Assembly (NCBI GenBank): GCA_046539305.1
Contig: JBKHHE010000002.1
Location: 35,928-99,927 of the forward strand
Source: Candidatus Aenigmatarchaeota archaeon
Lineage (GTDB): Archaea > Aenigmatarchaeota > Aenigmatarchaeia > PWEA01
DNA: 64,000 bases
Direction of reading: 5' to 3'
Under the pieces are notes generated by a model. The model did no database searches, was not told the DNA's origin, and saw only the letters and a list, made by a program, of their open reading frames with translations. The translations under genes and the position numbers were made by a program. Shown here one piece after another: positions 24,250 to 61,606 of this stretch. Numbering within the stretch: the stretch's first letter is position 1; each line of letters begins with the position of its first letter.

Positions 24250-24885
24250 GTGAAACAAATGGTGCTGGAAAACGCTCTGTACGGTGTATTCATCATAGCT
24301 GTAGGTGTGAGTTTTCTGACCTCACTGTTTTACAAAATTCTAATGGATCAGAAAGATGTAAAGAAGATAAAGGAGAAGATGAGCGAGCTTCAAGAGAAGT
24401 CGAAGGAAGCAAGGGAGGAAGGTAATGAGGAGAAGGCTATGGAATACCAGCAGGAGGTCATGAGTCACACCACGGAGCAAATGAAGATGCAGTTCAAGCC
24501 CATGATCGCCACCTTTATAGTAATAATACCTATATTTACCTTCCTGTTTCCTAGCCTTTACCCTGCGGCGACGGTCAACCTGGATGAAACGGACACACTA
24601 ACCTATGAGGGAACCAACTGGACCGTATCCTTGAACTCCGAGGATCCCCTGGAAATAAATATTGACGGAGAGACCTACTCTGAGGATGAAATAATTCAAA
24701 TTGATGGGCACGAGTTTAAAGTTGACAGCTACGAGGAAGGAAAGCTCAAAATGTCTAGGGTGGCTGCAAAACTTCCTCTTTCCCTGCCCTACGTAGGCAG
24801 CACGCTGGGATGGCTTGGGTGGTACATACTCGTGACCCTAGGATTTTCTCAGATCCTTAGAAAGTTGATGGGAGCAAGACCATGA
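24250..24885 (+). CDS. DUF106/EMC3-like membrane protein (putative archaeal Oxa1/YidC-like insertase) with an inserted soluble domain
   Basis: TM-coiled coil-TM architecture; conserved position after secY. Confidence 0.5.
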   Translation: MKQMVLENALYGVFIIAVGVSFLTSLFYKILMDQKDVKKIKEKMSELQEKSKEAREEGNEEKAMEYQQEVMSHTTEQMKMQFKPMIATFIVIIPIFTFLFPSLYPAATVNLDETDTLTYEGTNWTVSLNSEDPLEINIDGETYSEDEIIQIDGHEFKVDSYEEGKLKMSRVAAKLPLSLPYVGSTLGWLGWYILVTLGFSQILRKLMGARP

Positions 24886-25841
24886 AGCGTGAGTTTCAGT
24901 TCAAGGAGGCAGTTCTTTCTGACCCGAGCTACGGGAAATACCCCGGAGCACATACCATGGAAGAGGTTACGGAAAGGGGCATCGTGGTTCTCGACAAACC
25001 TGAGGGTCCAACCTCCCATCAAGCCACGGGCTGGGTGAAAGACATACTTGGCCTGAGCAAGGCCGGTCATTCAGGAACTCTGGATCCCAGGGCCACGGGC
25101 GTCCTTCTCATCGCGCTCGGAAAGGCCACGAAGACTATGCCTGTACTGAGTAACCTGGACAAGGAGTACGTTTCCCTGGTGATGCTGCACGGAGAGGTGA
25201 GCGACGGCGAGTTGGAGACGGCTCTTGAACAGTTCAGAGGCAAGATAAAGCAAACTCCTCCGAAGAAGTCAGCCGTGAAGAGGGAAGAGAGGGTCAGGGA
25301 AGTGAAGGAGCTGGAACTTCTGGAGAGAGGGGAGAATAAAATTTTGCTTAGGGTAAAATGTGAGGCAGGGACCTACATAAGGAAGCTCGCGCACGACCTC
25401 GGCGAGGAGCTTGGATGTGGCGCGCATATGAAAGAGCTCAGGAGGACGGCCGTGGGCCCCTTTGACGAGGAGGAAGCGGTGAAACTCCAAACACTGAAGG
25501 ACGACCGTGTTTTCTACGAGGAGGGGGAAAACGAAAATATAAGGGGTGATATTCTACCCCTGGAGATGGTCGCCGACGTTTCAAGCTGTATCGTGGTAAA
25601 GGACACGGCCGTGGAAGCACTCTGCAACGGAGCGGACCTGGGCGTGGGGGGTATCTCGGCTGTGGAGAGGAGCCTGAATAAGGGGGATAAGGTTTCGTTG
25701 CTCACAGGCAAGGGCGAGCTAGTCGCGATAGGCAAGGCAGAGATGGGCCCGAAGGATATCTACGAAAGCAACAGGGGAAAGGCGGTCTCGTTGATAAATG
25801 TGCTAATGGAGAGAGGGACCTATCCGAAGGCGTGGAAATAG
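24882..25841 (+). CDS. cbf5: tRNA/rRNA pseudouridine synthase Cbf5 (TruB family, PUA domain)
   Basis: VLDKPEGPTSH...HSGTLDP catalytic motif; archaeal Cbf5 N-terminal extension. Confidence 0.9.
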   Translation: MKREFQFKEAVLSDPSYGKYPGAHTMEEVTERGIVVLDKPEGPTSHQATGWVKDILGLSKAGHSGTLDPRATGVLLIALGKATKTMPVLSNLDKEYVSLVMLHGEVSDGELETALEQFRGKIKQTPPKKSAVKREERVREVKELELLERGENKILLRVKCEAGTYIRKLAHDLGEELGCGAHMKELRRTAVGPFDEEEAVKLQTLKDDRVFYEEGENENIRGDILPLEMVADVSSCIVVKDTAVEALCNGADLGVGGISAVERSLNKGDKVSLLTGKGELVAIGKAEMGPKDIYESNRGKAVSLINVLMERGTYPKAWK

Positions 25842-28597: not shown

Positions 28598-29383
28598 ATG
28601 GAGATAAAGAAGATGGAAGAGAAGAATGAAACCCTGAAGGTGCTGGTCAAAGACACGAATCCGGCTATGATGAACGCCCTTAGAAGGATCTCAATGAAAG
28701 GAATCCCTGTGCTCGCAATAGAAGACGTGGCTATTGTGAAGAACAACTCCCTCCTCTTCGACGAGGTAATAGCCCAGCGTCTGGGTCAAGTTCCCCTCGA
28801 TTTTGATCCGGACAAGTTCGAAATGCATGGGGAATGTGACTGTGAAGAAGGCTGCCCGAACTGCGAGGCAGTGTTCTCGTTAAAGGTGGAGGGACCAGGA
28901 AAGGTTTACTCTGGGGATCTTGTCTGTGAGTCAGGCGAAATCGAGCCGTTTTACGATGAAATACCTCTAACGGAGCTGGACGAAAACCAAGAGATTGAGA
29001 TGGAGGCCACGGCTATCCTGTCCACTGGAGAAGATCACTCCAAGCACCAGGCGGCTATCTCCTCATATCAGTATTATCCTATAATAAACGTGGATCAGGA
29101 TGAACTCACCAAAAAGGAGAAAAAGGAAGTAGCCGAGCTTTGTCCCCGTGGTGTGTTCGAAGTAAAGGATGGGAAGCTTGAGGTTACAGAGGAAGCAAGG
29201 TGTACGCTCTGCAGGGAGTGTGTGGAGGCAGTAGGCCCAGAAGGTATCACAGTCGCAGGAGACGATGAGAAGTTCATATTCAAGGTCGAGTCTATATCAG
29301 CGCTTGAACCTGACTGGATTATAAAAAAGACCGCTGAGATACTGGAGGAGAAGGCCGACAAGGTAATAGACAAGCTGGATTAG
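28598..29383 (+). CDS. rpoD: DNA-directed RNA polymerase subunit D
   Basis: RpoD homology with cysteine cluster (CDCEEGCPNC...CTLCREC); conserved position after S11. Confidence 0.88.
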   Translation: MEIKKMEEKNETLKVLVKDTNPAMMNALRRISMKGIPVLAIEDVAIVKNNSLLFDEVIAQRLGQVPLDFDPDKFEMHGECDCEEGCPNCEAVFSLKVEGPGKVYSGDLVCESGEIEPFYDEIPLTELDENQEIEMEATAILSTGEDHSKHQAAISSYQYYPIINVDQDELTKKEKKEVAELCPRGVFEVKDGKLEVTEEARCTLCRECVEAVGPEGITVAGDDEKFIFKVESISALEPDWIIKKTAEILEEKADKVIDKLD

Positions 29384-29559
29384 CGGGGGTAACCAAGTGG
29401 TCAAAATTGAAATTTTGACTTTCGCCAGCAAGCTGACGAAATGGTCAAAATATGGCCAAAGGTGCAGGACTTAAGGCAACTTAAGTGTTGAGGTATAAAT
29501 CCGATGATAAGAAATCCTGTGGCTTAGTGCCTTCGTCGGTTCAAATCCGGCCCCCCGCA
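29383..29559 (+). tRNA. tRNA-Leu (anticodon TAA) with about a 53-nt insertion in the D-loop and about a 38-nt intron at 37/38. Its first base is the last base of the rpoD stop codon
   Basis: Acceptor GCGGGGG/CCCCCGC; anticodon arm CAGGA-CTTAAG[...]A-TCCTG; T-arm GTCGG-TTCAAAT-CCGGC. Confidence 0.65.
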
Positions 29560-32914: not shown

Positions 32915-33012
32915 GCCGCGATGGTGTAGCGGCTCAACTCTCGAAGAGAGGGGGCCAAGCATAGAGCCCTGTCGAGGCTCTGACCCGGGTTCAAATCCCG
33001 GTCGCGGCGCCA
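32915..33012 (+). tRNA. tRNA-Asp (anticodon GTC) with about a 22-nt insertion in the D-loop region. CCA is encoded
   Basis: Acceptor GCCGCGA/TCGCGGC; anticodon arm GAGCC-CTGTCGA-GGCTC; T-arm CCGGG-TTCAAAT-CCCGG. Confidence 0.65.
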
Positions 33013-33050: not shown

Positions 33051-33191
33051 GGGCCCGTAGCTCAGTCTGGGAGAGCACTGGGCTTTTAAGAACACTTTGG
33101 AAAAACGTTCATGGAAAAATATTTTGATGGACCTTTTTCGAAAAGGTTCTAAGACACCCAGGAGTCGCGGGTTCAAATCCCGTCGGGCCCA
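33051..33191 (+). tRNA. tRNA-Lys (anticodon TTT) with about a 67-nt intron at 37/38
   Basis: GGGCCCG-TA-GCTC-AGTCTGGGA-GAGC-A-CTGGG-CTTTTA[intron]A-CCCAG-GAGTC-GCGGG-TTCAAAT-CCCGT-CGGGCCC-A. Confidence 0.75.
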
Positions 33192-47116: not shown

Positions 47117-47330
47117 GCCGGCGTGGCCGAGTCAGGCTCAAGGCGGTGGATTCGAGTCCGGATATGTTGAGCAAACGCGATGAAAGAGAAACATCCACTG
47201 GGCGTTAAGGACAGAGCGCGTAGGTCTCACCTACGCCGGTCGACTAGGCCCGCGCAGGTTCAAAGGAACCTTTTTCGAAAAAAGGTTCATCAAAAAGGAG
47301 AAGGTTCGGGAAATCCTGCCGCCGGCGCCA
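47117..47330 (+). tRNA. tRNA-Ser (anticodon CGA) with three insertions: about 36 nt at 37/38, about 44 nt in the variable arm (8-bp hairpin) and about 48 nt in the T-loop. CCA is encoded
   Basis: Acceptor GCCGGCG/CGCCGGC; D-arm GCC...GGC; anticodon arm GTGGA-TTCGAG[...]A-TCCAC; variable stem GGGC/GCCC; T-arm GCAGG-TTCAAA[...]T-CCTGC; followed by an oligo-T tract. Confidence 0.65.
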
Positions 47331-48883: not shown

Positions 48884-49420
48884 ATGTCTGAAGGTTTCAG
48901 CAGCAGGATATATTCAGACTGGATGAAGTCTACCCAAGAGAAGAAGTACACAGAGATACTACTGGACTTTATCCTGCCCCTGAAGAATAAGTTAAATATA
49001 GAAAACTGCCGAGTTCTTGACGTCGGTGTGGGTAAAGGATGGTTTGAGAAAAAGCTGATTGAAAGAGGTATGGACGCCGAGATTGTTGGCCTGGATATTG
49101 AAAAAACCGACTTAGCCACGGAAGGCGTTAGATTAATGCTTGGATCGGGTGACAGAATACCTCTGAAAGAGGAGAGTTTTGATTTCGTGGTTTCCTTCGA
49201 TACTGTTCACCTCCTCAAGAGTCCGGAGGAGATAGAGAGGGTTCTCAGTAAAGGAGGCTACGCACTAATCACCAGCCACTGCAATGAAAGAAACTTTAAA
49301 AAGAAGAAACAAAAAATTAACTCACTGTTCGAGATGGATGTGCTGAAGGAGGGGCTAGTGGGAGACCCTCAGGAGGAAATGAGCTACGCCGTTTTGTTAA
49401 AGAAAGGGTCCGTGGTCTAG
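48884..49420 (+). CDS. Class I SAM-dependent methyltransferase. Its last 15 nt overlap tRNA-Val
   Basis: VLDVGVGKGWF (motif I) and FDFVVSF (motif II). Confidence 0.7.
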   Translation: MSEGFSSRIYSDWMKSTQEKKYTEILLDFILPLKNKLNIENCRVLDVGVGKGWFEKKLIERGMDAEIVGLDIEKTDLATEGVRLMLGSGDRIPLKEESFDFVVSFDTVHLLKSPEEIERVLSKGGYALITSHCNERNFKKKKQKINSLFEMDVLKEGLVGDPQEEMSYAVLLKKGSVV

Positions 49421-49521
49421 CGGCTGGGAATCTTTTGTAAAGGTTGGTTATAAGATTCCACGTAAATGACGTCGCCTTGACATGGCGAAGGTCCCCCGTT
49501 CAAATCGGGGCGGACCCACCA
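49406..49521 (+). tRNA. tRNA-Val (anticodon GAC) with about a 39-nt insertion in the D-loop. CCA is encoded
   Basis: GGGTCCG-TG-GTCT-AGCGGCT[insertion GGGAATCTTTTGTAAAGGTTGGTTATAAGATTCC...]TGAC-G-TCGCC-TTGACAT-GGCGA-AGGTC-CCCCG-TTCAAAT-CGGGG-CGGACCC-A-CCA; oligo-T follows. Confidence 0.7.
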
Positions 49522-49547: not shown

Positions 49548-50456
49548 TCAAACTTCCGGCTGAGTAGTAACAGTAACGTCGTCCTCTACGAAGTATCCGT
49601 AACGAAGTCTGATTTTTACGGGTATCGCCATCTCGGGCTCAACATCGTCTTCATCAATATCTATTCTGCATCCTTTCCTGAAGTCGTGATCCCAGAAACT
49701 TACCTCTCCAAATTCTCCTCCGTAAGCATCGGCACAGTCGCCTACAAGTTCTCCAGGGTCTCCGACATCTATCTTCATTTCTATAGTATTCCTATCCAGG
49801 TCGTCCAGGACGCTACCCTCCAGGTATGCGGTGCCAGGCCCGGTATTCTGGCCAATAATAGTCAGCCTGAAGTCATCACCACCTTCCTCTATAGAAGGTG
49901 CCCTGCCTGGCTCCGGCAGGCTCACGGAAAACGGTCCTGCGGAGGTCACCGGTGCTTCAACTGCAGGTATTTCTTCGTCCTCCCTTGCCCTTGCCCTGTG
50001 CTCGTTTCTGTTCAGGGCAGGAACGTTCACCTCGGCAACGGTTTCGTATTCGTAATATACCCTCACCTTCGGGTTGTCTGTCCGCTCGACTGACTCCACC
50101 TCTGGAGCTTCAAGGCTCCAGTCCTCCGTCCTCGACTCTCCCTGATATTCATCTGTGGCCTTCTCCAAGGTATCGATGTCTTTCGGATTATCTTCATTTT
50201 CCTTCAAACTCAGTTTTCCTCGGTTGAAGATTTGAGCTTTGATGTTTTCCGCATTTACTGTTCCCATATTTTTGACATCCAGTATGATTTCCAAATCCTC
50301 GTTACTATAGACGGCCTCTGGATAGGCCTCAAGTCTATCAATTATTACACCGTCTTGTTGCGGTTCTGACTCCTCCTCGCCGAAGTCTAAACAACCGGAA
50401 ACCGCAACTACAAGCAAAGATGTGATAAGTAAAGCACCGATCTTCTTAGCTCTCAT
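49548..50456 (-). CDS. Secreted CARDB-like lipoprotein, paralog 1 (signal peptide + VSGC lipobox-like cysteine)
   Basis: MRAKKIGALLITSLLVVAVSGC...; GGDDFRLTIIGQNTGPG motif; about 300 aa, acidic. Confidence 0.6.
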   Translation of the reverse strand: MRAKKIGALLITSLLVVAVSGCLDFGEEESEPQQDGVIIDRLEAYPEAVYSNEDLEIILDVKNMGTVNAENIKAQIFNRGKLSLKENEDNPKDIDTLEKATDEYQGESRTEDWSLEAPEVESVERTDNPKVRVYYEYETVAEVNVPALNRNEHRARAREDEEIPAVEAPVTSAGPFSVSLPEPGRAPSIEEGGDDFRLTIIGQNTGPGTAYLEGSVLDDLDRNTIEMKIDVGDPGELVGDCADAYGGEFGEVSFWDHDFRKGCRIDIDEDDVEPEMAIPVKIRLRYGYFVEDDVTVTTQPEV

Positions 50457-50505
50457 CTATCCACCTAATTGTATTTTGGAATATTTACTTTATAAGGCTT
50501 TGCCT

Positions 50506-51408
50506 TTAAGGTGCGACTGTCACGGAAACCATACCATCAATAATGTATCTGTAGTCAGCATATACTTCAAACGACTCCTCTTCAAGTATGTCCACCTTGT
50601 CAGGAGCAACAAAACGACAGGATATCGTGGAAGTTTCATCCTCATGGAAGTAAAGGTCATCGGCCAAAGTGAGGTTGCCATTCTCTTCAACCATCTTTCC
50701 CTGGCATCCACCTTTCTGGTTCAGCGAATCCTCGGGCCAGTCCAAGACCACGCTCCCCTCTTCAAGGACCTGATCCTTTACACTTCCCTCGCCGACGTTC
50801 CTGAACTTTATCTCAAGTATGAAATCATCTCCTCCCAGTACTGGCTGTTCGTCGGGTGTGGAGATGTTTATGTCAAGGGGCGAATCCCTCTTGAAATACC
50901 CCAGCTCCAAAGGCTCCTCAACGCCCTCATCCTTCCTCCTTAGAAACTCGTCCTCGGACATGATGGCGACGCCGTAGCTTGCATACCCTTCTGAATCGTA
51001 CCCAACCCTGTAACGGAAATTAGAAGTCCTGGCCATGGGGACATCTCCCGCCACAAACCCCCATTCCAGGTTTTTGATCTCTCCTGGTTTGAGATCGCCA
51101 ACCTCCTTCTCCTTGTACGCGTCCTCCTCCACCGACTCAAAATGGCCGAGGTCCGTCATCTTCAGCAAAACGTCGCCAACAGTGGCATTTCCTTCGTTCT
51201 CAATTTCGAACTGAAGCCTTGTCTTCCTGCCCACTTCAACTTCATCCCGCAGAGACTCCGCCGAAACCGAAACCTTTTCCGTGACTATATACTCCGGCTC
51301 ACCAACCCCCAGAATCCCTGCCAGGTCAACGTCCGTAGCGAAGCCCATACATCCCGATACACCTACTACAAGAAGTAAGGCCAGGAGAACAGCTGCCGTC
51401 TTATTCAT
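50506..51408 (-). CDS. Secreted CARDB-like lipoprotein, paralog 2
   Basis: MNKTAAVLLALLLVVGVSGC...; GGDDFILEIKFRNVGEG motif. Confidence 0.6.
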   Translation of the reverse strand: MNKTAAVLLALLLVVGVSGCMGFATDVDLAGILGVGEPEYIVTEKVSVSAESLRDEVEVGRKTRLQFEIENEGNATVGDVLLKMTDLGHFESVEEDAYKEKEVGDLKPGEIKNLEWGFVAGDVPMARTSNFRYRVGYDSEGYASYGVAIMSEDEFLRRKDEGVEEPLELGYFKRDSPLDINISTPDEQPVLGGDDFILEIKFRNVGEGSVKDQVLEEGSVVLDWPEDSLNQKGGCQGKMVEENGNLTLADDLYFHEDETSTISCRFVAPDKVDILEEESFEVYADYRYIIDGMVSVTVAP

Positions 51409-51430
51409 GTCTGATCAAGGGATTTGGAAT

Positions 51431-52354
51431 CTACGGCTCTACCTCTACACTATGCTCGTGCAAAAGCTCGTACTCGTAGTCGTTTATTTCGACCTGGACT
51501 GTCTGCTCCTCTACCGGGCCCGGTCCTTCTATTGTCGCGTCTTCAATGACGCAGGATATTCTCGGTGTGGAGCCCTCGCTGAAGTAAAGGGTTTTATCGG
51601 TATTCCTCATAGGCCATATACAGTATTTACCTCCATTATCCTGCTCTTCCGTGTAGAAGTCTTTTATTTCCTCGCCGTTGTGCTTTATCGTTATATCCTC
51701 GGTACCCAGCTCGGTTCCCATCTTTCCTTCGCCTGTGTTCTCCATGTAGATATCGAAACCAACATCAGTTTCCTCGATAAGGGGCTGGTCTCCCCAGAAG
51801 TCTATGTAGGCCTTGATAGGTCCGTCTGCGTAGCTCGCCGTCGGACTGACCCCTATGCTCTCACCTCTCCGGTCCATCTCCCTGACATGGTCCTGGGTCA
51901 CGAGGTATAGGTCGTGTGTGGACCGGGCGTCGAAGGTATAGCTCACTCTAAATCTAAGTGAACAGTCTCTTGGCATGTGTCCCATATCCTCGGAATCGGG
52001 CGTCTCAAAATTCCACCGAACCTCCCTCTCCCCTCCCCTGTATATGTCGTCATCTCTGATATCACTGCCTTCCGTTCGGTTACACATACCCCAATCGTAA
52101 AGTTCCACGTCAACACCTTCGGTGTCCTCATTCTCGTACAGATTCTTTACCAGGAAAGAAAACTCAAAGCCCGAATCCGAAGCTATGGGCGGATTGGGTA
52201 TTACATTTTTATCGGCAACCTCAAGAACGTCGCTGGGAGCTTCCTCTTCCTCCGTGCCGACGCCCATGATCCCGGCAAGGCCTCCTCCTTCCACACATCC
52301 AGAGGTAAATAAGACTAATCCCAGGGCCAGGATCAGAACCACAAACCTTTTCAT
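51431..52354 (-). CDS. Secreted CARDB-like lipoprotein, paralog 3
   Basis: MKRFVVLILALGLVLFTSGC...; similar size and motif layout. Confidence 0.6.
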   Translation of the reverse strand: MKRFVVLILALGLVLFTSGCVEGGGLAGIMGVGTEEEEAPSDVLEVADKNVIPNPPIASDSGFEFSFLVKNLYENEDTEGVDVELYDWGMCNRTEGSDIRDDDIYRGGEREVRWNFETPDSEDMGHMPRDCSLRFRVSYTFDARSTHDLYLVTQDHVREMDRRGESIGVSPTASYADGPIKAYIDFWGDQPLIEETDVGFDIYMENTGEGKMGTELGTEDITIKHNGEEIKDFYTEEQDNGGKYCIWPMRNTDKTLYFSEGSTPRISCVIEDATIEGPGPVEEQTVQVEINDYEYELLHEHSVEVEP

Positions 52355-52417
52355 AAAACCACTATATCTTGTTTTTGCTCCCCAGTAAATATAAATCTTT
52401 CCATTTACTCACCATCC

Positions 52418-55336
52418 TCATCCTCCTCCACCCCCACCATCGTCCTCATCTCCATCCTCTGGAACACATCTATAGACGTCTCCATCGCACTTGTAATCCT
52501 CCTCGAAGCTATCTTTACACCGACTATCGCCGTATTCATCGTGGCCAGGAATACATTCGTACCTCACCTCGACCGTGCTGGTCCTGCTGAACTGATACCT
52601 GTACTCTACCTCCGTCATCAGGTTTTTGGTCTGGTCAGGAGCACCATCTATGTCCAAGTGTTGTTCACCGTCGACGACACACCTCGCATCGATTGTCTCG
52701 TCCGGCTCCAGACCCAGCTTCTCACCTGTCTCATGCTCGTGTGCCTGCAGGCTCTCTATAGTTTCTAGCCTGTTGTTGATGTCCTTCTCTATAACCTTGC
52801 CGCATTCCTTTCCATCATTGCTTTCTACGGGTTCTCCGTCTATCGTTATATTTTTGATCGTTATATCTCTCAGATAGCCCTCGCCCCGGTTGGTCACGGG
52901 GAAGAAAAGGGTCCTGGTCTCACCGTCTTTCACGGGCTGCTGCGTGCCCACGCCGAGGCCGACAGCAAGGGGACCCCATTCGAACCTTGACGTGGGTTCA
53001 TAGAAATCTGTGTCACGGAGCTGGTCGTACCTGTCCTCGCTGTAAATTTCCACCTCCAGATCTGCGTAGGTGTGGACATCGTAGGCCGCGTCGATGCCGT
53101 AAGTCATGTACTCTCCAGGCTTCGCGTTTTCTTCGAAAGCAGTGTGTGTGACCGTGAAAGTGTGGGACTGTCCGGGTCTGAGGTCGACTTTACAGGGTTG
53201 TGAATCCCAATAAGCCCTATATGATTCTTCGTCATCATCGGATTCTGTGTGTCCACTCGCATCTTCACAAGGCGGACCAAACTCCCAACTGCTCCCTATA
53301 GTATTAAGAACGGGGCCGTCGGGCGACCATGTTTTCTCGGAGGTGTCGTAAATAGTCCTGGGAGCCAACTTGACATCCTCTACGGTAGGTGGTTCGTCGA
53401 CGTCTTCACGGGTCAGGGTATTCTTCAGGTCAAAGGTGTAAGTAAATATACCCTCTTCGTCAAAACCTTGGTCAGTTTTTATTGGTTCCTCAATCCTGTT
53501 CCCTGGAAGGCCTACCGGCTCCGGATTGGTTACCTCAACTGCCGTGTAGGACTTCTCAGCCTCGGTATCCGGCCGCCATATCTCCATACACGCCTGCGGT
53601 GACTGGAGACAGGTCCAGCCCTGGCCCATAGTCATCTGAATATCCTGGAAACCTGTAAGCATAGGAGAAGCTGCCGACTCAATTACCTGTATCCTGTTGT
53701 GCACGGTCGGCCACCAATCCCCAAATACAGCCTCCCCCATAACCTGTGGATAGGCCGTGGTTGCGGCCATAATTGCTATAGGTAAAACTATCATCCCCAT
53801 TACAGGCCTGGCCTCTGGAATAGGAACGGCTGTGGAGAGTCCCATCAAGACGATACCGATGTAAAGGACGGCCGCGACCGTGGTTCCCATGAGGGCGTAT
53901 CCACCCAAAACCAGGCCAATTAAGCCAGTAATTCCGGAAAACGCGGTACCGGCTTGTCCAGAACCAAAGGCCTTATACAAAAAAATTATCCCAATAAAAC
54001 CAGCAACCACTGGAAGTATCCAACGGGGGGAAATAATAATTGCCAGAATAACACCTATGATAATAAAAAAGATTAAAGATGTTTTTAAAATTCCCGGCGG
54101 TCCCTTGTTAACCGCTTCTATAAAGCCATCTGCCGCCTCCTTGAAACCTTTTGCTATTTCACCAGGCTTGCCTTCTCCGTAATCTCTAAATTTAGGAATT
54201 ACGATAAAGAAGGCTAATGAGAGAGAGAGTAGGGAAAGACCAAGTTTCCAATTTGTACTCCATATTCCGGAACCCCATACAAATGTCCAGTTGAATAGAG
54301 GTATCAGAACAAAAGCACCGTAAATAAACCTCATAATCATCATTATTCTTTCCAGCTGCCTCTCCTCTTCCCGGTCTGCAGAAGGCTTGCTGGGAAAGGT
54401 GAAGATTCCTATGGCCGCGACGATCATGGGGATCATCCTAAACACTGCCCGATCACCGACGAAAGCCAAAAGGCCGCCCGTAAGGAATATGAATCCGAAT
54501 ACCCTGAAACCGGGCTTCGCGTAGCCCCACGGAAGCGTCTTAGGAAAAATACGGTCGAAGACTAAACCAATTATTCCAAGCATGGTCAAGGCGTAGGCCA
54601 TTCCTCCGAAGCCTATCATCGGGAGGACTATGGCTATAATTAAAACCGCTATGAACATGAAAGCTATGCTTGCGACCCTCGAGCGCAGCGCCTCGCCAAA
54701 CTCGCTCGATGCCCTTTCCTTTTCCTCTTCCTTTTTATTCGCCTTTGCCGTTAATTCCTCCAGCCTTTCTGTGCTTCTAGCAAATTCTCCACATTTATTA
54801 CATTCCCACACTTCTTTATCCGGGTCGTAAGTCCAATCATCGTGGATTTCCTCGCAGTTGTCACAGTACCAGTTCCATTTGGATTCATCTTCCTCCGTTT
54901 CTTCGCCTTTTCCTTCTCCACTGTCTTTATCAGAAGGTGGAAGTCTCTCTTCAGCCTGCTTTTCTTGAATCATTTTATATAGCTCCTGTTCCTCATCTCC
55001 TGTCAAATTCCTGCCGCCTTGAAGTCCCCATTTCCTGACCTTCTGCTGAGCTTCCTGTAATTCTTCCCACGTCTCGGCTTTCTCTATCTTCTCTTTGATT
55101 TTTTCCTTATGCTCTTCTTTGGCTGCCTCCATCTCCGGCTCCCTTCTTTCTGTTTTTGGCTTCGGTTTTCCCTTCTCTTCCTTCCCGTAAACCCTGTCGG
55201 CGAGCTTTTCGATATAGTCGCGGCTCACGTTCTCGAAGACATCAGAAGTCCTGCGGACGGCCTCGTCTCTGGGAACTTCCATCTTCCTGTGGTTAATCAA
55301 AGCCTGCCTGGCTCTTTCACGGGGATCTTTGGGCAA
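52418..55336 (-). CDS. Large polytopic membrane protein (972 aa): charged coiled-coil N-terminus with a C4 zinc ribbon, at least 10 TM helices and a large cysteine-containing C-terminal ectodomain ending in poly-Gly
   Basis: WNWYCDNCEEIHDD...WECNKCGEF; long hydrophobic block at residues ~230-540; C-terminal ...CVPEDGDEDDGGGGGG. Confidence 0.6.
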   Translation of the reverse strand: MPKDPRERARQALINHRKMEVPRDEAVRRTSDVFENVSRDYIEKLADRVYGKEEKGKPKPKTERREPEMEAAKEEHKEKIKEKIEKAETWEELQEAQQKVRKWGLQGGRNLTGDEEQELYKMIQEKQAEERLPPSDKDSGEGKGEETEEDESKWNWYCDNCEEIHDDWTYDPDKEVWECNKCGEFARSTERLEELTAKANKKEEEKERASSEFGEALRSRVASIAFMFIAVLIIAIVLPMIGFGGMAYALTMLGIIGLVFDRIFPKTLPWGYAKPGFRVFGFIFLTGGLLAFVGDRAVFRMIPMIVAAIGIFTFPSKPSADREEERQLERIMMIMRFIYGAFVLIPLFNWTFVWGSGIWSTNWKLGLSLLSLSLAFFIVIPKFRDYGEGKPGEIAKGFKEAADGFIEAVNKGPPGILKTSLIFFIIIGVILAIIISPRWILPVVAGFIGIIFLYKAFGSGQAGTAFSGITGLIGLVLGGYALMGTTVAAVLYIGIVLMGLSTAVPIPEARPVMGMIVLPIAIMAATTAYPQVMGEAVFGDWWPTVHNRIQVIESAASPMLTGFQDIQMTMGQGWTCLQSPQACMEIWRPDTEAEKSYTAVEVTNPEPVGLPGNRIEEPIKTDQGFDEEGIFTYTFDLKNTLTREDVDEPPTVEDVKLAPRTIYDTSEKTWSPDGPVLNTIGSSWEFGPPCEDASGHTESDDDEESYRAYWDSQPCKVDLRPGQSHTFTVTHTAFEENAKPGEYMTYGIDAAYDVHTYADLEVEIYSEDRYDQLRDTDFYEPTSRFEWGPLAVGLGVGTQQPVKDGETRTLFFPVTNRGEGYLRDITIKNITIDGEPVESNDGKECGKVIEKDINNRLETIESLQAHEHETGEKLGLEPDETIDARCVVDGEQHLDIDGAPDQTKNLMTEVEYRYQFSRTSTVEVRYECIPGHDEYGDSRCKDSFEEDYKCDGDVYRCVPEDGDEDDGGGGGG

Positions 55337-55369
55337 CCTTCCACCTGTTTTACTTTAAAATCTTCACTT

Positions 55370-56569
55370 TTAATAGGTTACTTCGAAGTCGGAGAGGTAG
55401 AAGCCTCCCTCTCCCCCTACTTCAAACTGGAGGGTATTTTCTCCCACCGCCAAATCATCCTTCGTTATCTCTATTGAAATAGTTTCTCCCTCTTTTAGGG
55501 GTTTACCGGCCAGGATATCCTTTTCCTCACCTTCTGCAGTTTCTATCTTCAGGGTGAGGAACCTGGGGTTTCCCTCTATACGGTCTATTTGGAAAGTTAT
55601 GTTGCCAGGGAGCTGGTTATAGTTTCCGGAACTTACATCGAGCACTTTCCTGGAGGCCTCGGAATAGCCGGCGTTCCAGAAATAAACCATTTTCGCTGAG
55701 TCGAAGCTGTAAGAGGAATCCACCTCGGTGAAAAGGGTTAGCTCGTTTTGTCCTTCCTCCACCTCAGCTTCCTCAAAGTCTATCCACATCGACCTTTCCG
55801 CCCGATACTCCGGTATGTCCCTGTAAACGTCCTTTCCGTTGACCTGAACCACGAGGGGACTCTCATCCACAAACTCGTCGGGCATAAAAACCAACCTCCC
55901 CATCCTGAAGTTGTCGGCCTGATCTTCCGTGAGGGAGAACTCGAAACTCCTTTCATTCCTCCCAAGTATATCAGCCTTCATCGTGAAGTTTTCCAGTATG
56001 TAAACGGTCGGAGCCCAGAACCTCCAGCCGGAGGATTTGGGGGATATCTCCAGTTCGTTTGTCTTATCGAGCAGAGTCCTGTTCACATCTACGGTATAAG
56101 ACCTCTCGGGGGCGGGGTAACCGGAGTATACCTCCCCACCGTTGAGGAATAGCTCCAGTTCATTCATCCGGTTCGTGTCCTTCACCCAGAAGTCCAGACC
56201 AAAGGAAACTATATTATCAAGTTCGCTCTGAGTAAGGTTGAAGGCAACCGAGCGGGTTTCGCTGGTGCCTATGCCCCTCCTGACATCCACATCTTCCAGT
56301 TTTCCAAGGGTCCTCTCCTCCTCGTGGAACGAAACCTTAAAGGGTTCGTTCGAGAGAGTCACGTGCTTGAAGGCCGTGTCTTCTATCCTTCCCACGTAGA
56401 AAGCCTCCCCGGGCTCCTCCTCACCTTCCTCCTCATCACCGTCGCTGGGACCAGGAATCAGAGGGCCTTCTTCCTCACCGTCTTCTATGAAATCCATCTC
56501 CCCTCCAAATAGGACTAGGAGAACTCCAAAGAGAACTATAGCAACCAGCAGAACCCTTGCAAAATCCAT
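55370..56569 (-). CDS. Secreted acidic protein with an N-terminal signal/anchor (399 aa)
   Basis: MDFARVLLVAIVLFGVLLVLFGG then a poly-E/D linker. Confidence 0.55.
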   Translation of the reverse strand: MDFARVLLVAIVLFGVLLVLFGGEMDFIEDGEEEGPLIPGPSDGDEEEGEEEPGEAFYVGRIEDTAFKHVTLSNEPFKVSFHEEERTLGKLEDVDVRRGIGTSETRSVAFNLTQSELDNIVSFGLDFWVKDTNRMNELELFLNGGEVYSGYPAPERSYTVDVNRTLLDKTNELEISPKSSGWRFWAPTVYILENFTMKADILGRNERSFEFSLTEDQADNFRMGRLVFMPDEFVDESPLVVQVNGKDVYRDIPEYRAERSMWIDFEEAEVEEGQNELTLFTEVDSSYSFDSAKMVYFWNAGYSEASRKVLDVSSGNYNQLPGNITFQIDRIEGNPRFLTLKIETAEGEEKDILAGKPLKEGETISIEITKDDLAVGENTLQFEVGGEGGFYLSDFEVTY

Positions 56570-58232: not shown

Positions 58233-58346
58233 ATGGACCCGGCGGGATTTGAACCCGCGGTCTCCACCATGCCAAGGTGGCGTCTTTTCGTTGGAACCTT
58301 TTGATGAATCTTTTTGGAAAAGATTCCTTCCACTAGACTACGGGCC
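58233..58346 (-). tRNA. tRNA-Ala (anticodon GGC) with about a 38-nt insertion in the D-loop
   Basis: Reverse complement gives GGGCCCG-TA-GTCT-AGTGG[insertion]AGAC-G-CCACC-TTGGCAT-GGTGG-AGACC-GCGGG-TTCAAAT-CCCGC-CGGGTCC-A. Confidence 0.7.
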
Positions 58347-58438
58347 CTGGTAAATGCTTGGAAAACAGTTTAATAAAGATTTGGGGCCGCGCAAGGGCAA
58401 GTTTTATATAGTAGCTAGCATATTATGGCATCTGTAAG

Positions 58439-61241: not shown

Positions 61242-61330
61242 GGAACGGGACCGCCGGGATTGACGGAGGAAGCTTTCCAAAACCTTCAATTCAAATATTC
61301 TTTTTCATGAATGTTTAAAAAAGATTCTGA

Positions 61331-61545
61331 TGGGACCGCCGGGATTCGAACCCGAGATCTCCGGCTTCCATGCCGCGCACGACGGAATTTACCGAAAGCG
61401 AAGCTTTCGTAAAACACGAAAACCCGCGTTTTCGGCGATTTACGCGCGGTGGCCTTATAAGACCGGCGCTTTGGTCAAGTCTTTCCCTTTTTGATGAACC
61501 TTTTTTCGAAAAAGGTTCTTTCTAACCAAGCTAAGCCACGGTCCC
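61331..61545 (-). tRNA. tRNA with two large insertions (about 50 nt in the D-loop, about 89 nt at 37/38); the anticodon reads TAT, so a candidate tRNA-Ile(UAU)
   Basis: Reverse complement gives GGGACCG-TG-GCTT-AGCTTGGTT[insertion]-AAGC-G-CCGGT-CTTATA[intron]A-GCCGG-AGATC-TCGGG-TTCGAAT-CCCGG-CGGTCCC-A. Confidence 0.5.
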
Positions 61546-61606
61546 ATCTAATAGGGACAGTTAAACTGCAAGACTTTTATTAGTTTTCTGTCTTAAAAAT
61601 ATAACC

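What the first reader, a model, noticed from the sequence alone, without database searches (positions are those of the whole stretch)
61331..61545. Candidate tRNA-Ile with a genomic UAU anticodon
The best cloverleaf for this 215-nt gene places CTTATAA in the anticodon loop (anticodon TAT) between stem CCGGT/GCCGG, with a good D-stem (GCTT/AAGC) and T-arm. Most archaea decode AUA with a CAU tRNA modified to agmatidine by TiaS. A genomic UAU isoleucine tRNA is reported from very few archaeal lineages and bears on lineage identity and decoding strategy. Two large insertions make the call uncertain.
Basis: inference. Interest (0 to 1): 0.55.

Follow-up and report, generated by a model that had tools for sequence, protein, structure and literature searches.

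The report
Two-intron isoleucine tRNA with UAU anticodon
This is a real, conserved transfer-RNA gene, interrupted by two introns, that reads the isoleucine codon AUA directly with a UAU anticodon; the strategy is already known from a few tiny (DPANN) archaea and is here extended to the Aenigmatarchaeota.

Summary
On the minus strand, 61545→61331 encodes a pre-tRNA with two insertions. Removing 51 nt from the D-arm (between positions 22 and 23) and 89 nt from the anticodon loop (38/39) leaves a textbook 75-nt cloverleaf with loop CUUAUAA, A37 and A73, which ARAGORN calls tRNA-Ile(UAU).

Both insertions sit in relaxed bulge-helix-bulge splice motifs. Fourteen orthologues, from Aenigmatarchaeota/Nanobdellati MAGs and from metagenome contigs, keep the same gene neighbours. 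Their exons are identical apart from R57. Their introns vary in length and sequence but keep the splice helices paired (4/4 in 15/15 genes, with compensatory changes). Rfam's tRNA model scores a short-intron orthologue at 46 bits.

Single-intron alternative folds are not reproducible across orthologues. AUA makes up 60% of Ile codons in the window, so the gene is needed. None of the window's 11 tRNAs has a CAU anticodon, and its 20 largest ORFs include no TiaS. Genome-wide absence could not be tested.

tRNA-Ile(UAU) without TiaS is published for Nanoarchaeum, Korarchaeum and ARMAN, so this is a new member of a known kind. Standard tRNA finders miss the gene.

The parts
61331..61545 (-). Complete pre-tRNA-Ile(UAU) gene, 215 nt (G1 at 61545, A73 at 61331). 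No CCA is encoded.
   Evidence: The orthologue L005 scores 46.4 bits with Rfam RF00005.
61522..61545 (-). Exon 1 (positions 1-22): acceptor 5' strand GGGACCG, U8 G9, D-stem GCUU, D-loop AGCUUGGUUA, G22.
   Evidence: Invariant in 15 orthologues. The boundary comes from the BHB register and from relatives without intron 1.
61471..61521 (-). Intron 1, 51 nt, at position 22/23 in the D-arm. It is a relaxed BHB (HBh'): central helix GGUU/GACC, bulges AG|A and AA|A, inner helix AAG/CUU.
   Evidence: The central helix is 4/4 paired in 15/15 genes. The inner helix covaries: AAG/CTT, AAGA/TCTT, CCC/GGG, CCTG/CAGG, AGGAA../..TTCCT. Length is 18-51 nt among orthologues.
61486..61518 (-). 33-nt hairpin module inside intron 1 (GAACCTTTTTCGAAAAAAGGTTCATCAAAAAGG), shared with introns of other tRNA genes in the window.
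   Evidence: An identical copy lies in a T-loop insertion at 47267-47299. Diverged copies lie at 58296-58328 (Ala D-loop) and 33130-33149 (Lys intron, inverted).
61455..61470 (-). Exon 2 (positions 23-38): AGC, G26, anticodon-stem 5' strand CCGGU, loop CUUAUAA. The anticodon U34 A35 U36 is at 61459-61457.
   Evidence: Invariant in 15 orthologues.
61366..61454 (-). Intron 2, 89 nt, at 38/39 (37/38 would give the same mature sequence). Central helix U33-U36 (UUAU) paired with AUGG, bulges AA|G and AA|G, inner helix GCC/GGC.
   Evidence: The central helix is 4/4 paired in 15/15 genes with four different 3' strands (ATGG, GTAA, ATAG, ATGA). The canonical 37/38 register gives only 1-2/4. Orthologues have 38-39 nt; the window carries about 50 extra nt at 61382-61436.
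61331..61365 (-). Exon 3 (positions 39-73): GCCGG, variable loop AGAUC, T-arm UCGGG-UUCGAAU-CCCGG, acceptor 3' strand CGGUCCC, A73.
   Evidence: Only R57 (G/A) varies among the 15 orthologues.
61574..61582 (-). Candidate TATA box TAATAAAAG, ending 28 nt upstream of G1. This implies a short 5' leader.
   Evidence: Read from the sequence. A similar A/T-rich box is conserved upstream in orthologues. Its role is inferred, not tested.
61317..61322 (-). T6 run 8 nt after A73, a likely archaeal transcription stop.
   Evidence: Read from the sequence. Inference.

Best explanation
This is a functional gene for tRNA-Ile with a genomically encoded UAU anticodon, in an Aenigmatarchaeota (DPANN) genome, interrupted by two archaeal-type introns. 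The 215-nt precursor is transcribed from an upstream A/T-rich box. The 5' leader is trimmed (RNase P) and the splicing endonuclease cuts at two relaxed bulge-helix-bulge motifs. One motif is in the D-arm (22/23, helix GGUU/GACC). The other is in the anticodon loop (38/39), where U33-U36, including the anticodon, pair with the 3' end of the intron. The exons are then ligated (RtcB-type ligase) and CCA is added. The mature 75-nt tRNA reads AUA, the most used isoleucine codon in this genome, by direct U34-A pairing rather than by the usual archaeal route of tRNA-Ile2(CAU) modified to agmatidine by TiaS. Shown here: gene anatomy, splice-motif geometry, conservation and covariation, synteny and codon usage. 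Inferred: the enzymes, the actual splicing, charging with isoleucine, any U34 modification, and absence of TiaS.
For: In-silico splicing gives a 75-nt cloverleaf that ARAGORN calls tRNA-Ile(tat). It carries U8, A14, G15-C48, G18G19, A21, G26, U33, A37, G53-C61, UUCR A58 and A73. Both introns fit the BHB register that yields this cloverleaf better than any of 48 shifted registers. Across 15 orthologues the exons are invariant except R57. Nine intron-1 and eight intron-2 sequences exist, and every one keeps the 4-bp central helix 4/4 paired and the inner helix paired through compensatory changes. Synteny (orf60750 - tRNA - PDDEXK/HTH gene - endonuclease IV) is conserved while those proteins are 43-70% identical over full-length alignments. 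Rfam's tRNA model scores orthologue L005 at 46.4 bits against a threshold of 29, with CUUAUA in the anticodon loop. Relatives lacking intron 1 or intron 2 read exactly across the predicted junctions. AUA accounts for 579 of 967 Ile codons, 37 per 1000 codons. No CAU tRNA is among the 11 tRNA genes of the window. No TiaS domain is among its 20 largest ORFs. Precedent: ARMAN-2/4/5 have tRNA-Ile(UAU) and lack TiaS and tRNA-Ile(CAU), and ARMAN-2 pre-tRNA-Ile(UAU) is spliced in vitro (PMC3239211).
Against: There is no RNA-level evidence of transcription or splicing. Both BHB motifs lack a proper outer helix: one pair for intron 1, and an out-of-register anticodon stem for intron 2. Cleavage therefore needs a broad-specificity endonuclease, and none was identified in the window. 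The window's own gene scores below threshold with Rfam and default ARAGORN. Its intron 2 is about 50 nt longer than in any orthologue. Only 64 kb of the genome was seen, so a TiaS/tRNA-Ile2(CAU) system elsewhere is not excluded.
Confidence: 0.9

Rival explanations
1. The locus is a decaying tRNA pseudogene whose two insertions have disabled it, and AUA is read by another tRNA.
For: Standard finders do not call it. The insertions are large, and intron 2 is unusually long in the window.
Against: The exons are 100% identical (apart from R57) in 15 loci whose neighbouring proteins have diverged to 43-70% identity. The insertions always preserve the splice helices through compensatory change. AUA is the major Ile codon, and no other AUA decoder is visible among 11 tRNAs.
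Confidence: 0.03
2. The gene is a tRNA with a different anticodon, produced by a different fold or splice. One candidate is ARAGORN's single-135-nt-intron tRNA-Ser(CGA). Another would use the CAT near the 3' end of intron 2.
For: ARAGORN with introns enabled returns Ser(cga) for the window. A CAT triplet lies 5 nt upstream of the 3' splice site (separated from GCCGG by GGAA).
Against: The Ser fold has only 2 good D-stem pairs and a weak anticodon stem. Its CGA lies in the loop of a hairpin that short-intron orthologues lack altogether. Across orthologues ARAGORN's single-intron calls are Gly(tcc), 'Stop'(tta), Pro(ggg) or nothing, so they are not reproducible. The CAT is CGT in L006, L015 and L084 and would leave a 9-nt loop. 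It is instead part of the helix that pairs with UUAU.
Confidence: 0.02
3. The tRNA-Ile(UAU) is functional, but the genome also keeps TiaS and tRNA-Ile2(CAU), so the decoding strategy is redundant rather than a replacement.
For: Only about 64 kb of the genome was examined. Absence of TiaS and of a CAU tRNA in this window says little about the rest.
Against: The published archaeal lineages with tRNA-Ile(UAU) that were examined for it (ARMAN-2/4/5) lack both TiaS and tRNA-Ile(CAU) (PMC3239211). From recalled literature, not re-read here, Nanoarchaeum and Korarchaeum also lack TiaS. Small DPANN genomes rarely keep redundant systems (general knowledge).
Confidence: 0.12

Closest known systems
tRNA-Ile(UAU) of ARMAN-2/4/5 (Micrarchaeota/Parvarchaeota, DPANN), Fujishima et al. 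2011, PMC3239211
   Same: It is in a DPANN archaeon. The UAU anticodon is genomically encoded. A BHB intron interrupts the anticodon loop. Other tRNA genes of the genome are heavily disrupted. It is the proposed replacement for the TiaS route.
   Different: ARMAN-2's gene is described with a single 25-nt intron at 37/38 in a strict hBHBh' motif. Here there are two introns (22/23 and 38/39), both in relaxed motifs, and the phylum differs (Aenigmatarchaeota). Loss of TiaS and tRNA-Ile(CAU) was shown for ARMAN but not here.
tRNA-Ile(UAU) of Nanoarchaeum equitans and Korarchaeum cryptofilum (PMC6000648)
   Same: They are archaeal tRNA-Ile genes with a UAU anticodon. The Korarchaeum gene also carries an intron.
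   Different: The lineages differ. Those were the only 2 of 167 genomes in that survey.
Canonical archaeal AUA decoding: tRNA-Ile2(CAU) with agmatidine made by TiaS
   Same: It has the same job, reading AUA as isoleucine without reading AUG.
   Different: The mechanism is different. Here A is read by U34, and no C34 modification is needed. No CAU tRNA or TiaS was seen in the window.
Multi-intron and non-canonical-position tRNA genes of Thermoproteales and DPANN, cleaved by broad-specificity EndA (PMC5829648, PMC4090602)
   Same: Introns lie outside 37/38, the motifs are relaxed HBh' type, there are several introns per gene, and related intron sequences occur at different tRNA positions.
   Different: This is a specific case in Aenigmatarchaeota. 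The EndA type of this genome is unknown.
Eukaryotic tRNA-Ile(UAU), including the three-intron gene of Cyanidioschyzon merolae (PMC9602550)
   Same: It has a UAU anticodon and an intron that pairs with the anticodon. The C. merolae gene also has a D-arm intron as well as the anticodon-loop intron.
   Different: It is eukaryotic, and in yeast Psi34/Psi36 formation depends on the intron. Nothing is known about U34 modification here.
Mycoplasma mobile tRNA-Ile(UAU) (PMC3575796)
   Same: It decodes AUA without a modifying enzyme for C34.
   Different: It is bacterial, has no intron, and is an independent origin.

Membership tests
tRNA (Rfam RF00005) | Cloverleaf with a 7-bp acceptor stem, D-arm, 5-bp anticodon stem with a 7-nt loop and U33, and a T-arm with a UUCRA loop | tested here: met
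   The spliced 75-nt product folds as a perfect cloverleaf (ARAGORN). Orthologue L005 scores 46.4 bits against a gathering score of 29 over model positions 1-71. The unspliced window gene itself is below threshold.
tRNA (Rfam RF00005) | Conserved tertiary-interaction nucleotides (U8, A14, R15-Y48, G18G19, A21, G53-C61, U54U55C56, A58) | tested here: met
   All are present in the spliced sequence, read directly.
tRNA-Ile(UAU) isoacceptor | Anticodon UAU at positions 34-36 of the mature tRNA | tested here: met
   The loop is C32 U33 U34 A35 U36 A37 A38 in 15/15 orthologues after BHB-guided splicing. The Rfam alignment agrees.
tRNA-Ile(UAU) isoacceptor | Features expected of an ANN-reading Ile tRNA: A37 (t6A site) and discriminator A73 | tested here: met
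   Both are present. Their role as identity elements in this lineage rests on general knowledge.
tRNA-Ile(UAU) isoacceptor | Aminoacylation with isoleucine by IleRS | not testable with these tools
   This needs biochemistry. No IleRS was found in the window.
Archaeal BHB (bulge-helix-bulge) tRNA intron | Central 4-bp helix flanked by two 3-nt bulges on opposite strands, with cleavage after the second bulge nucleotide | tested here: met
   Intron 1 has GGUU/GACC with bulges AG|R and AA|A. Intron 2 has UUAU/RURR with bulges AA|G and AA|G. The central helix is 4/4 paired in 15/15 genes, and the register is the best of 49.
Archaeal BHB (bulge-helix-bulge) tRNA intron | Inner helix (h') next to the bulge, maintained by covariation | tested here: met
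   There are six distinct H/h' states for intron 1 and five for intron 2, all paired. L010/L080 have one mismatch after the first pair.
Archaeal BHB (bulge-helix-bulge) tRNA intron | Outer helix (h) of the strict hBHBh' form | tested here: not met
   The outer helix is 1 bp for intron 1 and 0 bp in strict register for intron 2. The motifs are therefore the relaxed HBh' type, which is known to need broad-specificity EndA (PMC5829648).
Archaeal BHB (bulge-helix-bulge) tRNA intron | Actual excision by the splicing endonuclease and ligation | not testable with these tools
   There are no RNA data. Indirect support comes from intron-less relatives that read across both predicted junctions.
TiaS-independent AUA decoding (Nanoarchaeum / Korarchaeum / ARMAN type) | Genome encodes tRNA-Ile(UAU) | tested here: met
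TiaS-independent AUA decoding (Nanoarchaeum / Korarchaeum / ARMAN type) | Genome lacks tiaS | tested here: inconclusive
   No TiaS-like domain is among the 20 largest ORFs of the 64-kb window. The rest of the genome was not available.
TiaS-independent AUA decoding (Nanoarchaeum / Korarchaeum / ARMAN type) | Genome lacks tRNA-Ile2(CAU) | tested here: inconclusive
   None of the 11 tRNA genes found in the window has a CAU anticodon. This covers the window only.

The most novel reading that the evidence does not exclude
The anticodon-loop intron may be more than a passenger. Its 3' end pairs with U33-U36 in every Aenigmatarchaeota orthologue and in 24 distinct intron variants from other archaeal-type metagenome tRNAs; 9 further variants pair with C32-A35. 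The intron might therefore be retained because maturation of this particular tRNA needs it, for example for intron-dependent modification of U34/U36 as in eukaryotic tRNA-Ile(PsiAPsi), to stop U34 from reading AUG. If so, a large part of DPANN would share a eukaryote-like, TiaS-free AUA decoding system inherited from a common ancestor.
Probability: 0.1. Interest if true: 0.7.

Novelty: new member of a known kind. Interest (0 to 1): 0.35.

Why it matters
AUA is the commonest isoleucine codon in this genome, so this hard-to-detect gene is probably essential. Annotation pipelines that miss it would report a genome unable to read 60% of its isoleucine codons, or would wrongly infer a missing tRNA. 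It extends the TiaS-independent, UAU-based AUA decoding known from Nanoarchaeum, Korarchaeum and ARMAN to Aenigmatarchaeota. The metagenome data suggest the same anticodon arm and intron are widespread among uncultivated small archaea. This bears on whether loss of agmatidine decoding is ancestral in DPANN. The locus also offers natural covariation data for relaxed splice motifs at positions 22/23 and 38/39.

Tried and rejected
- Default ARAGORN and Rfam (both gathering and permissive thresholds) on the window found nothing at the locus.
- ARAGORN with one intron allowed gave an artefactual Ser(CGA).
- A naive BHB scan of the precursor alone was too noisy to be useful.
- I rejected the canonical 37/38 register for intron 2. 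Its central helix pairs only 1-2/4, against 4/4 for 38/39.
- I rejected the idea that CAT near the intron's 3' end is an anticodon, because it is not conserved.
- I considered that TGATGA on the opposite strand of intron 1 might be a C/D-box sRNA. I dropped this because it is on the wrong strand and is simply the complement of the shared TTCATCA module.
- The look-up of encoding contigs on the neighbouring endonuclease IV gave only two short Logan contigs and no taxonomy.
- Literature searches for TiaS+DPANN and for 'AUA codon'+DPANN+tRNA found nothing relevant.
- I could not search for TiaS in related genomes.

Full report
**What is in the sequence.** The plus strand of 61331-61545 is the reverse complement of a tRNA. 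On the minus strand the parts read:
- acceptor GGGACCG, then UG;
- D-stem GCUU and D-loop AGCUUGGUUAG, followed by a first insertion;
- AGC, G, anticodon-stem strand CCGGU and loop CUUAUAA, followed by a second insertion;
- GCCGG, variable loop AGAUC, T-arm UCGGG-UUCGAAU-CCCGG, acceptor CGGUCCC and discriminator A.

ARAGORN in default mode and Rfam's tRNA model (gathering, and permissive on the 500-nt region) report nothing here. ARAGORN allows one intron only. With introns enabled it forces a 135-nt intron and calls a weak tRNA-Ser(CGA) with 2 good D-stem pairs.

**Orthologues.** I searched a collection with one genome per species using only the T-arm and 3' acceptor, so the pattern was independent of introns and anticodon. 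Six hits were clear orthologues:
- five MAGs titled Candidatus Aenigmatarchaeota archaeon (L005, L006, L010, L011, L015);
- one titled Nanobdellati archaeon (L013).

The other hits were unrelated tRNAs (mostly tRNA-Pro(GGG)) that share the acceptor and T arm. A metagenome scan with exon 2 plus the next base added eight more loci with identical exons (L046, L064, L066, L080, L083, L084, L088, L108).

All of these keep the gene order orf60750 - tRNA - PDDEXK/HTH gene - endonuclease IV. Identity of their proteins to the window's is:
- PDDEXK/HTH gene: 43-46% (higher only over two short partial matches, 80% over 93 aa in L064 and 60% over 60 aa in L083);
- orf60750: 55-65%;
- endonuclease IV: 66-70%.

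Aenigmatarchaeota is a phylum of the kingdom Nanobdellati, the DPANN archaea. The window is core chromosome of such an archaeon. It carries EF-2, EF-1alpha, ribosomal protein L3, SecY, Cbf5, RNA polymerase B and A subunits, CTP synthase and a phosphate transporter.

**Exons and introns.** Across the 15 genes the three exon segments (24, 16 and 35 nt) are invariant except for R57 in the T-loop (G in 6, A in 9). Intron lengths and variants are:

| Insertion | Length among orthologues | Distinct sequences | Window |
|---|---|---|---|
| First (D-arm) | 18-51 nt | 9 | 51 nt |
| Second (anticodon loop) | 38-39 nt | 8 | 89 nt |

Joining the exons gives a 75-nt sequence that ARAGORN calls tRNA-Ile(tat) in all the genes tested. 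It has a 7-bp acceptor, D-stem GCUU/GAGC, anticodon stem CCGGU/GCCGG and loop CUUAUAA. It carries U8, A14, G15-C48, G18G19, A21, G26, U33, A37, G53-C61, U54U55C56, A58 and A73.

Rfam's tRNA covariance model provides an independent check. It recognises the short-intron orthologue L005 over the full model at 46.4 bits (gathering score 29, E = 8e-9). It places CUUAUA in the anticodon loop, with insertions in the D-loop and after position 37.

**Splice motifs.** Archaeal introns are cut at a bulge-helix-bulge motif: a 4-bp helix between two 3-nt bulges, with cleavage after the second bulge nucleotide (established knowledge; PMC3239211, PMC5829648).
- **Intron 1.** The central helix is GGUU (positions 18-20a) paired with GACC (GAUC in L064). 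The bulges are AG|R and AA|A. The inner helix changes while staying paired: AAG/CUU, AAGA/UCUU, CCC/GGG, CCUG/CAGG, AGGAA../..UUCCU. This puts the intron at 22/23 and builds the D-stem 3' strand GAGC from G22 of exon 1 plus AGC of exon 2. Relatives without a D-arm intron read GGTTAG|AGCGCC across exactly this junction.
- **Intron 2.** The central helix is U33 U34 A35 U36 paired with AUGG, GUAA, AUAG or AUGA. The bulges are A37A38|G and AA|G39. The inner helix is GCC/GGC, 2-5 bp.
- **Register.** In both cases the central helix is 4/4 paired in 15/15 genes, and the chosen register scores best among 49 tested. The canonical 37/38 register pairs only 1-2 of 4 for intron 2, so the intron is at 38/39. 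Either register gives the same mature loop.
- **Outer helix.** It is essentially absent in strict register, so both motifs are the relaxed HBh' type.

**Rival folds.** ARAGORN's single-intron calls on the 15 precursors are Gly(tcc), 'Stop'(tta), Pro(ggg) or nothing, and Ser(cga) for the window with its flanks. They are not reproducible across orthologues. The CGA of the Ser fold lies in a hairpin loop that short-intron orthologues lack. The CAT near the 3' end of intron 2 is CGT in three orthologues and belongs to the helix that pairs with UUAU.

**Need for the gene.** In 50 long ORFs of the window (15,506 codons), AUA is used 579 times, AUC 220 and AUU 168. AUA is therefore 60% of Ile codons and 37 per 1000 codons, more than AUG. 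I found 11 tRNA genes in the window, several only by hand:
- Ser(GGA), Leu(UAA), Asp(GUC), Lys(UUU), Lys(CUU), Ser(CGA);
- Gly(GCC), Val(GAC), Ala(GGC), Val(CAC), Ile(UAU).

None has a CAU anticodon. The 20 largest ORFs include no TiaS, IleRS, EndA or RtcB. This says nothing about the rest of the genome.

**Wider distribution.** I analysed 112 loci: 105 from metagenomes, 6 from genomes, and the window.
- 62 carry the same anticodon arm followed by an intron. These comprise 38 distinct variants on many different acceptor stems, some with D-arm and T-loop introns as well.
- 37 are intron-less tRNAs reading CCGGU-CUUAUAA-GCCG. By their T-loops, encoded CCA and neighbouring tRNAs, many look bacterial (inference).
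- 13 are chance or truncated matches.
- Among the intron variants, 24 have a perfect central helix in the 38/39 register and 9 in the canonical 37/38 register.

**Comparison with the literature.**
- A 2018 survey found tRNA-UAU in only 2 of 167 archaeal genomes, Korarchaeum cryptofilum and Nanoarchaeum equitans (PMC6000648).
- Fujishima et al. 2011 reported that ARMAN-2, -4 and -5 (DPANN) carry tRNA-Ile(UAU) and lack both tRNA-Ile(CAU) and TiaS. They also showed that ARMAN-2 pre-tRNA-Ile(UAU), with a 25-nt intron at 37/38, is cut by its epsilon2 endonuclease in vitro (PMC3239211).
- DPANN lineages are known for disrupted tRNA genes that predictors miss (PMC5829648).
- I found no paper in the searchable library that reports this for Aenigmatarchaeota. 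That is not proof that none exists.

**Verdict.** It is a new member of a known kind. The added value is threefold: precise anatomy (introns at 22/23 and 38/39, relaxed motifs with covariation); strong evidence of function (15 syntenic orthologues, AUA as the majority Ile codon); and the indication that this gene type is common in uncultivated small archaea. Splicing itself, charging, any U34 modification, and genome-wide absence of TiaS and tRNA-Ile2(CAU) remain unshown.

Noticed in passing
window 29383-29559 (+), 47117-47330 (+), 49406-49521 (+), 58234-58347 (-), 32915-33012 (+): Several further tRNA genes are disrupted by insertions and are missed or mis-bounded by ARAGORN and Rfam. Leu(UAA) has D-loop and anticodon-loop insertions. 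Ser(CGA) has anticodon-loop and T-loop insertions and possibly one in the variable arm. Val(GAC) and Ala(GGC) have D-loop insertions. For Asp(GUC), the acceptor strand GCCGCGA starts at 32915, 23 nt before ARAGORN's start. With the others this makes 11 tRNA genes in 64 kb, and 10 of them carry introns.
   Followed up: partly
window 61486-61518 (-), 47267-47299 (+), 58296-58328 (-), 33130-33149 (+, inverted); L006, L015, L084 intron 1: A roughly 33-nt module (hairpin GAACCTTTTT-CGA-AAAAAGGTTC followed by ATCAAAAAGG) recurs inside introns at different tRNA positions: Ile D-arm, Ser T-loop (identical copy), Ala D-loop and Lys anticodon loop (opposite orientation). Related CTTTT-loop-AAAAG hairpins occur in T-loop introns of metagenome relatives. 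It looks like a shared or mobile intron module, as described for Thermoproteales intron transposition.
   Followed up: partly
window 61382-61436 (-): The window's intron 2 carries about 50 nt that all 14 orthologues lack. The extra stretch sits in the apical loop of the intron hairpin, is flanked by GTAAAT repeats, and contains a GC-UUCG-GC tetraloop hairpin (AAGCTTCGCTT). A similar hairpin occurs in a T-loop intron of metagenome locus L107. It may be a nested insertion.
   Followed up: no
window-wide (50 ORFs): There is strong codon bias towards AUA: 60% of Ile codons and more frequent than AUG, at 48.5% G+C. The proteins are rich in Glu and Lys.
   Followed up: partly
window 49548-56566 (-): Five consecutive large ORFs (301, 299, 306, 953 and 398 aa) have no Pfam match at E<=1e-5. 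They may be lineage-specific surface or secreted proteins.
   Followed up: no
metagenome loci L020, L028, L031, L040, L050, L053, L065, L068, L016, L019, L057, L107 and others: Other archaeal-type tRNA-Ile(UAU) genes with different acceptor stems carry the same exon 2 and an intron beginning GGCC and ending GGCGTARAA. They often also carry a T-arm intron that splits the T-stem or T-loop, making up to three introns in one gene. This parallels the three-intron tRNA-Ile(UAU) of the red alga Cyanidioschyzon merolae.
   Followed up: partly
window 24882-25838 (+): A Cbf5-type pseudouridine synthase (TruB_N, TruB_C_2 and PUA domains) is encoded in the window. It is ordinary for archaea, but relevant if U34/U36 or U55 of this tRNA are pseudouridylated.
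   Followed up: no
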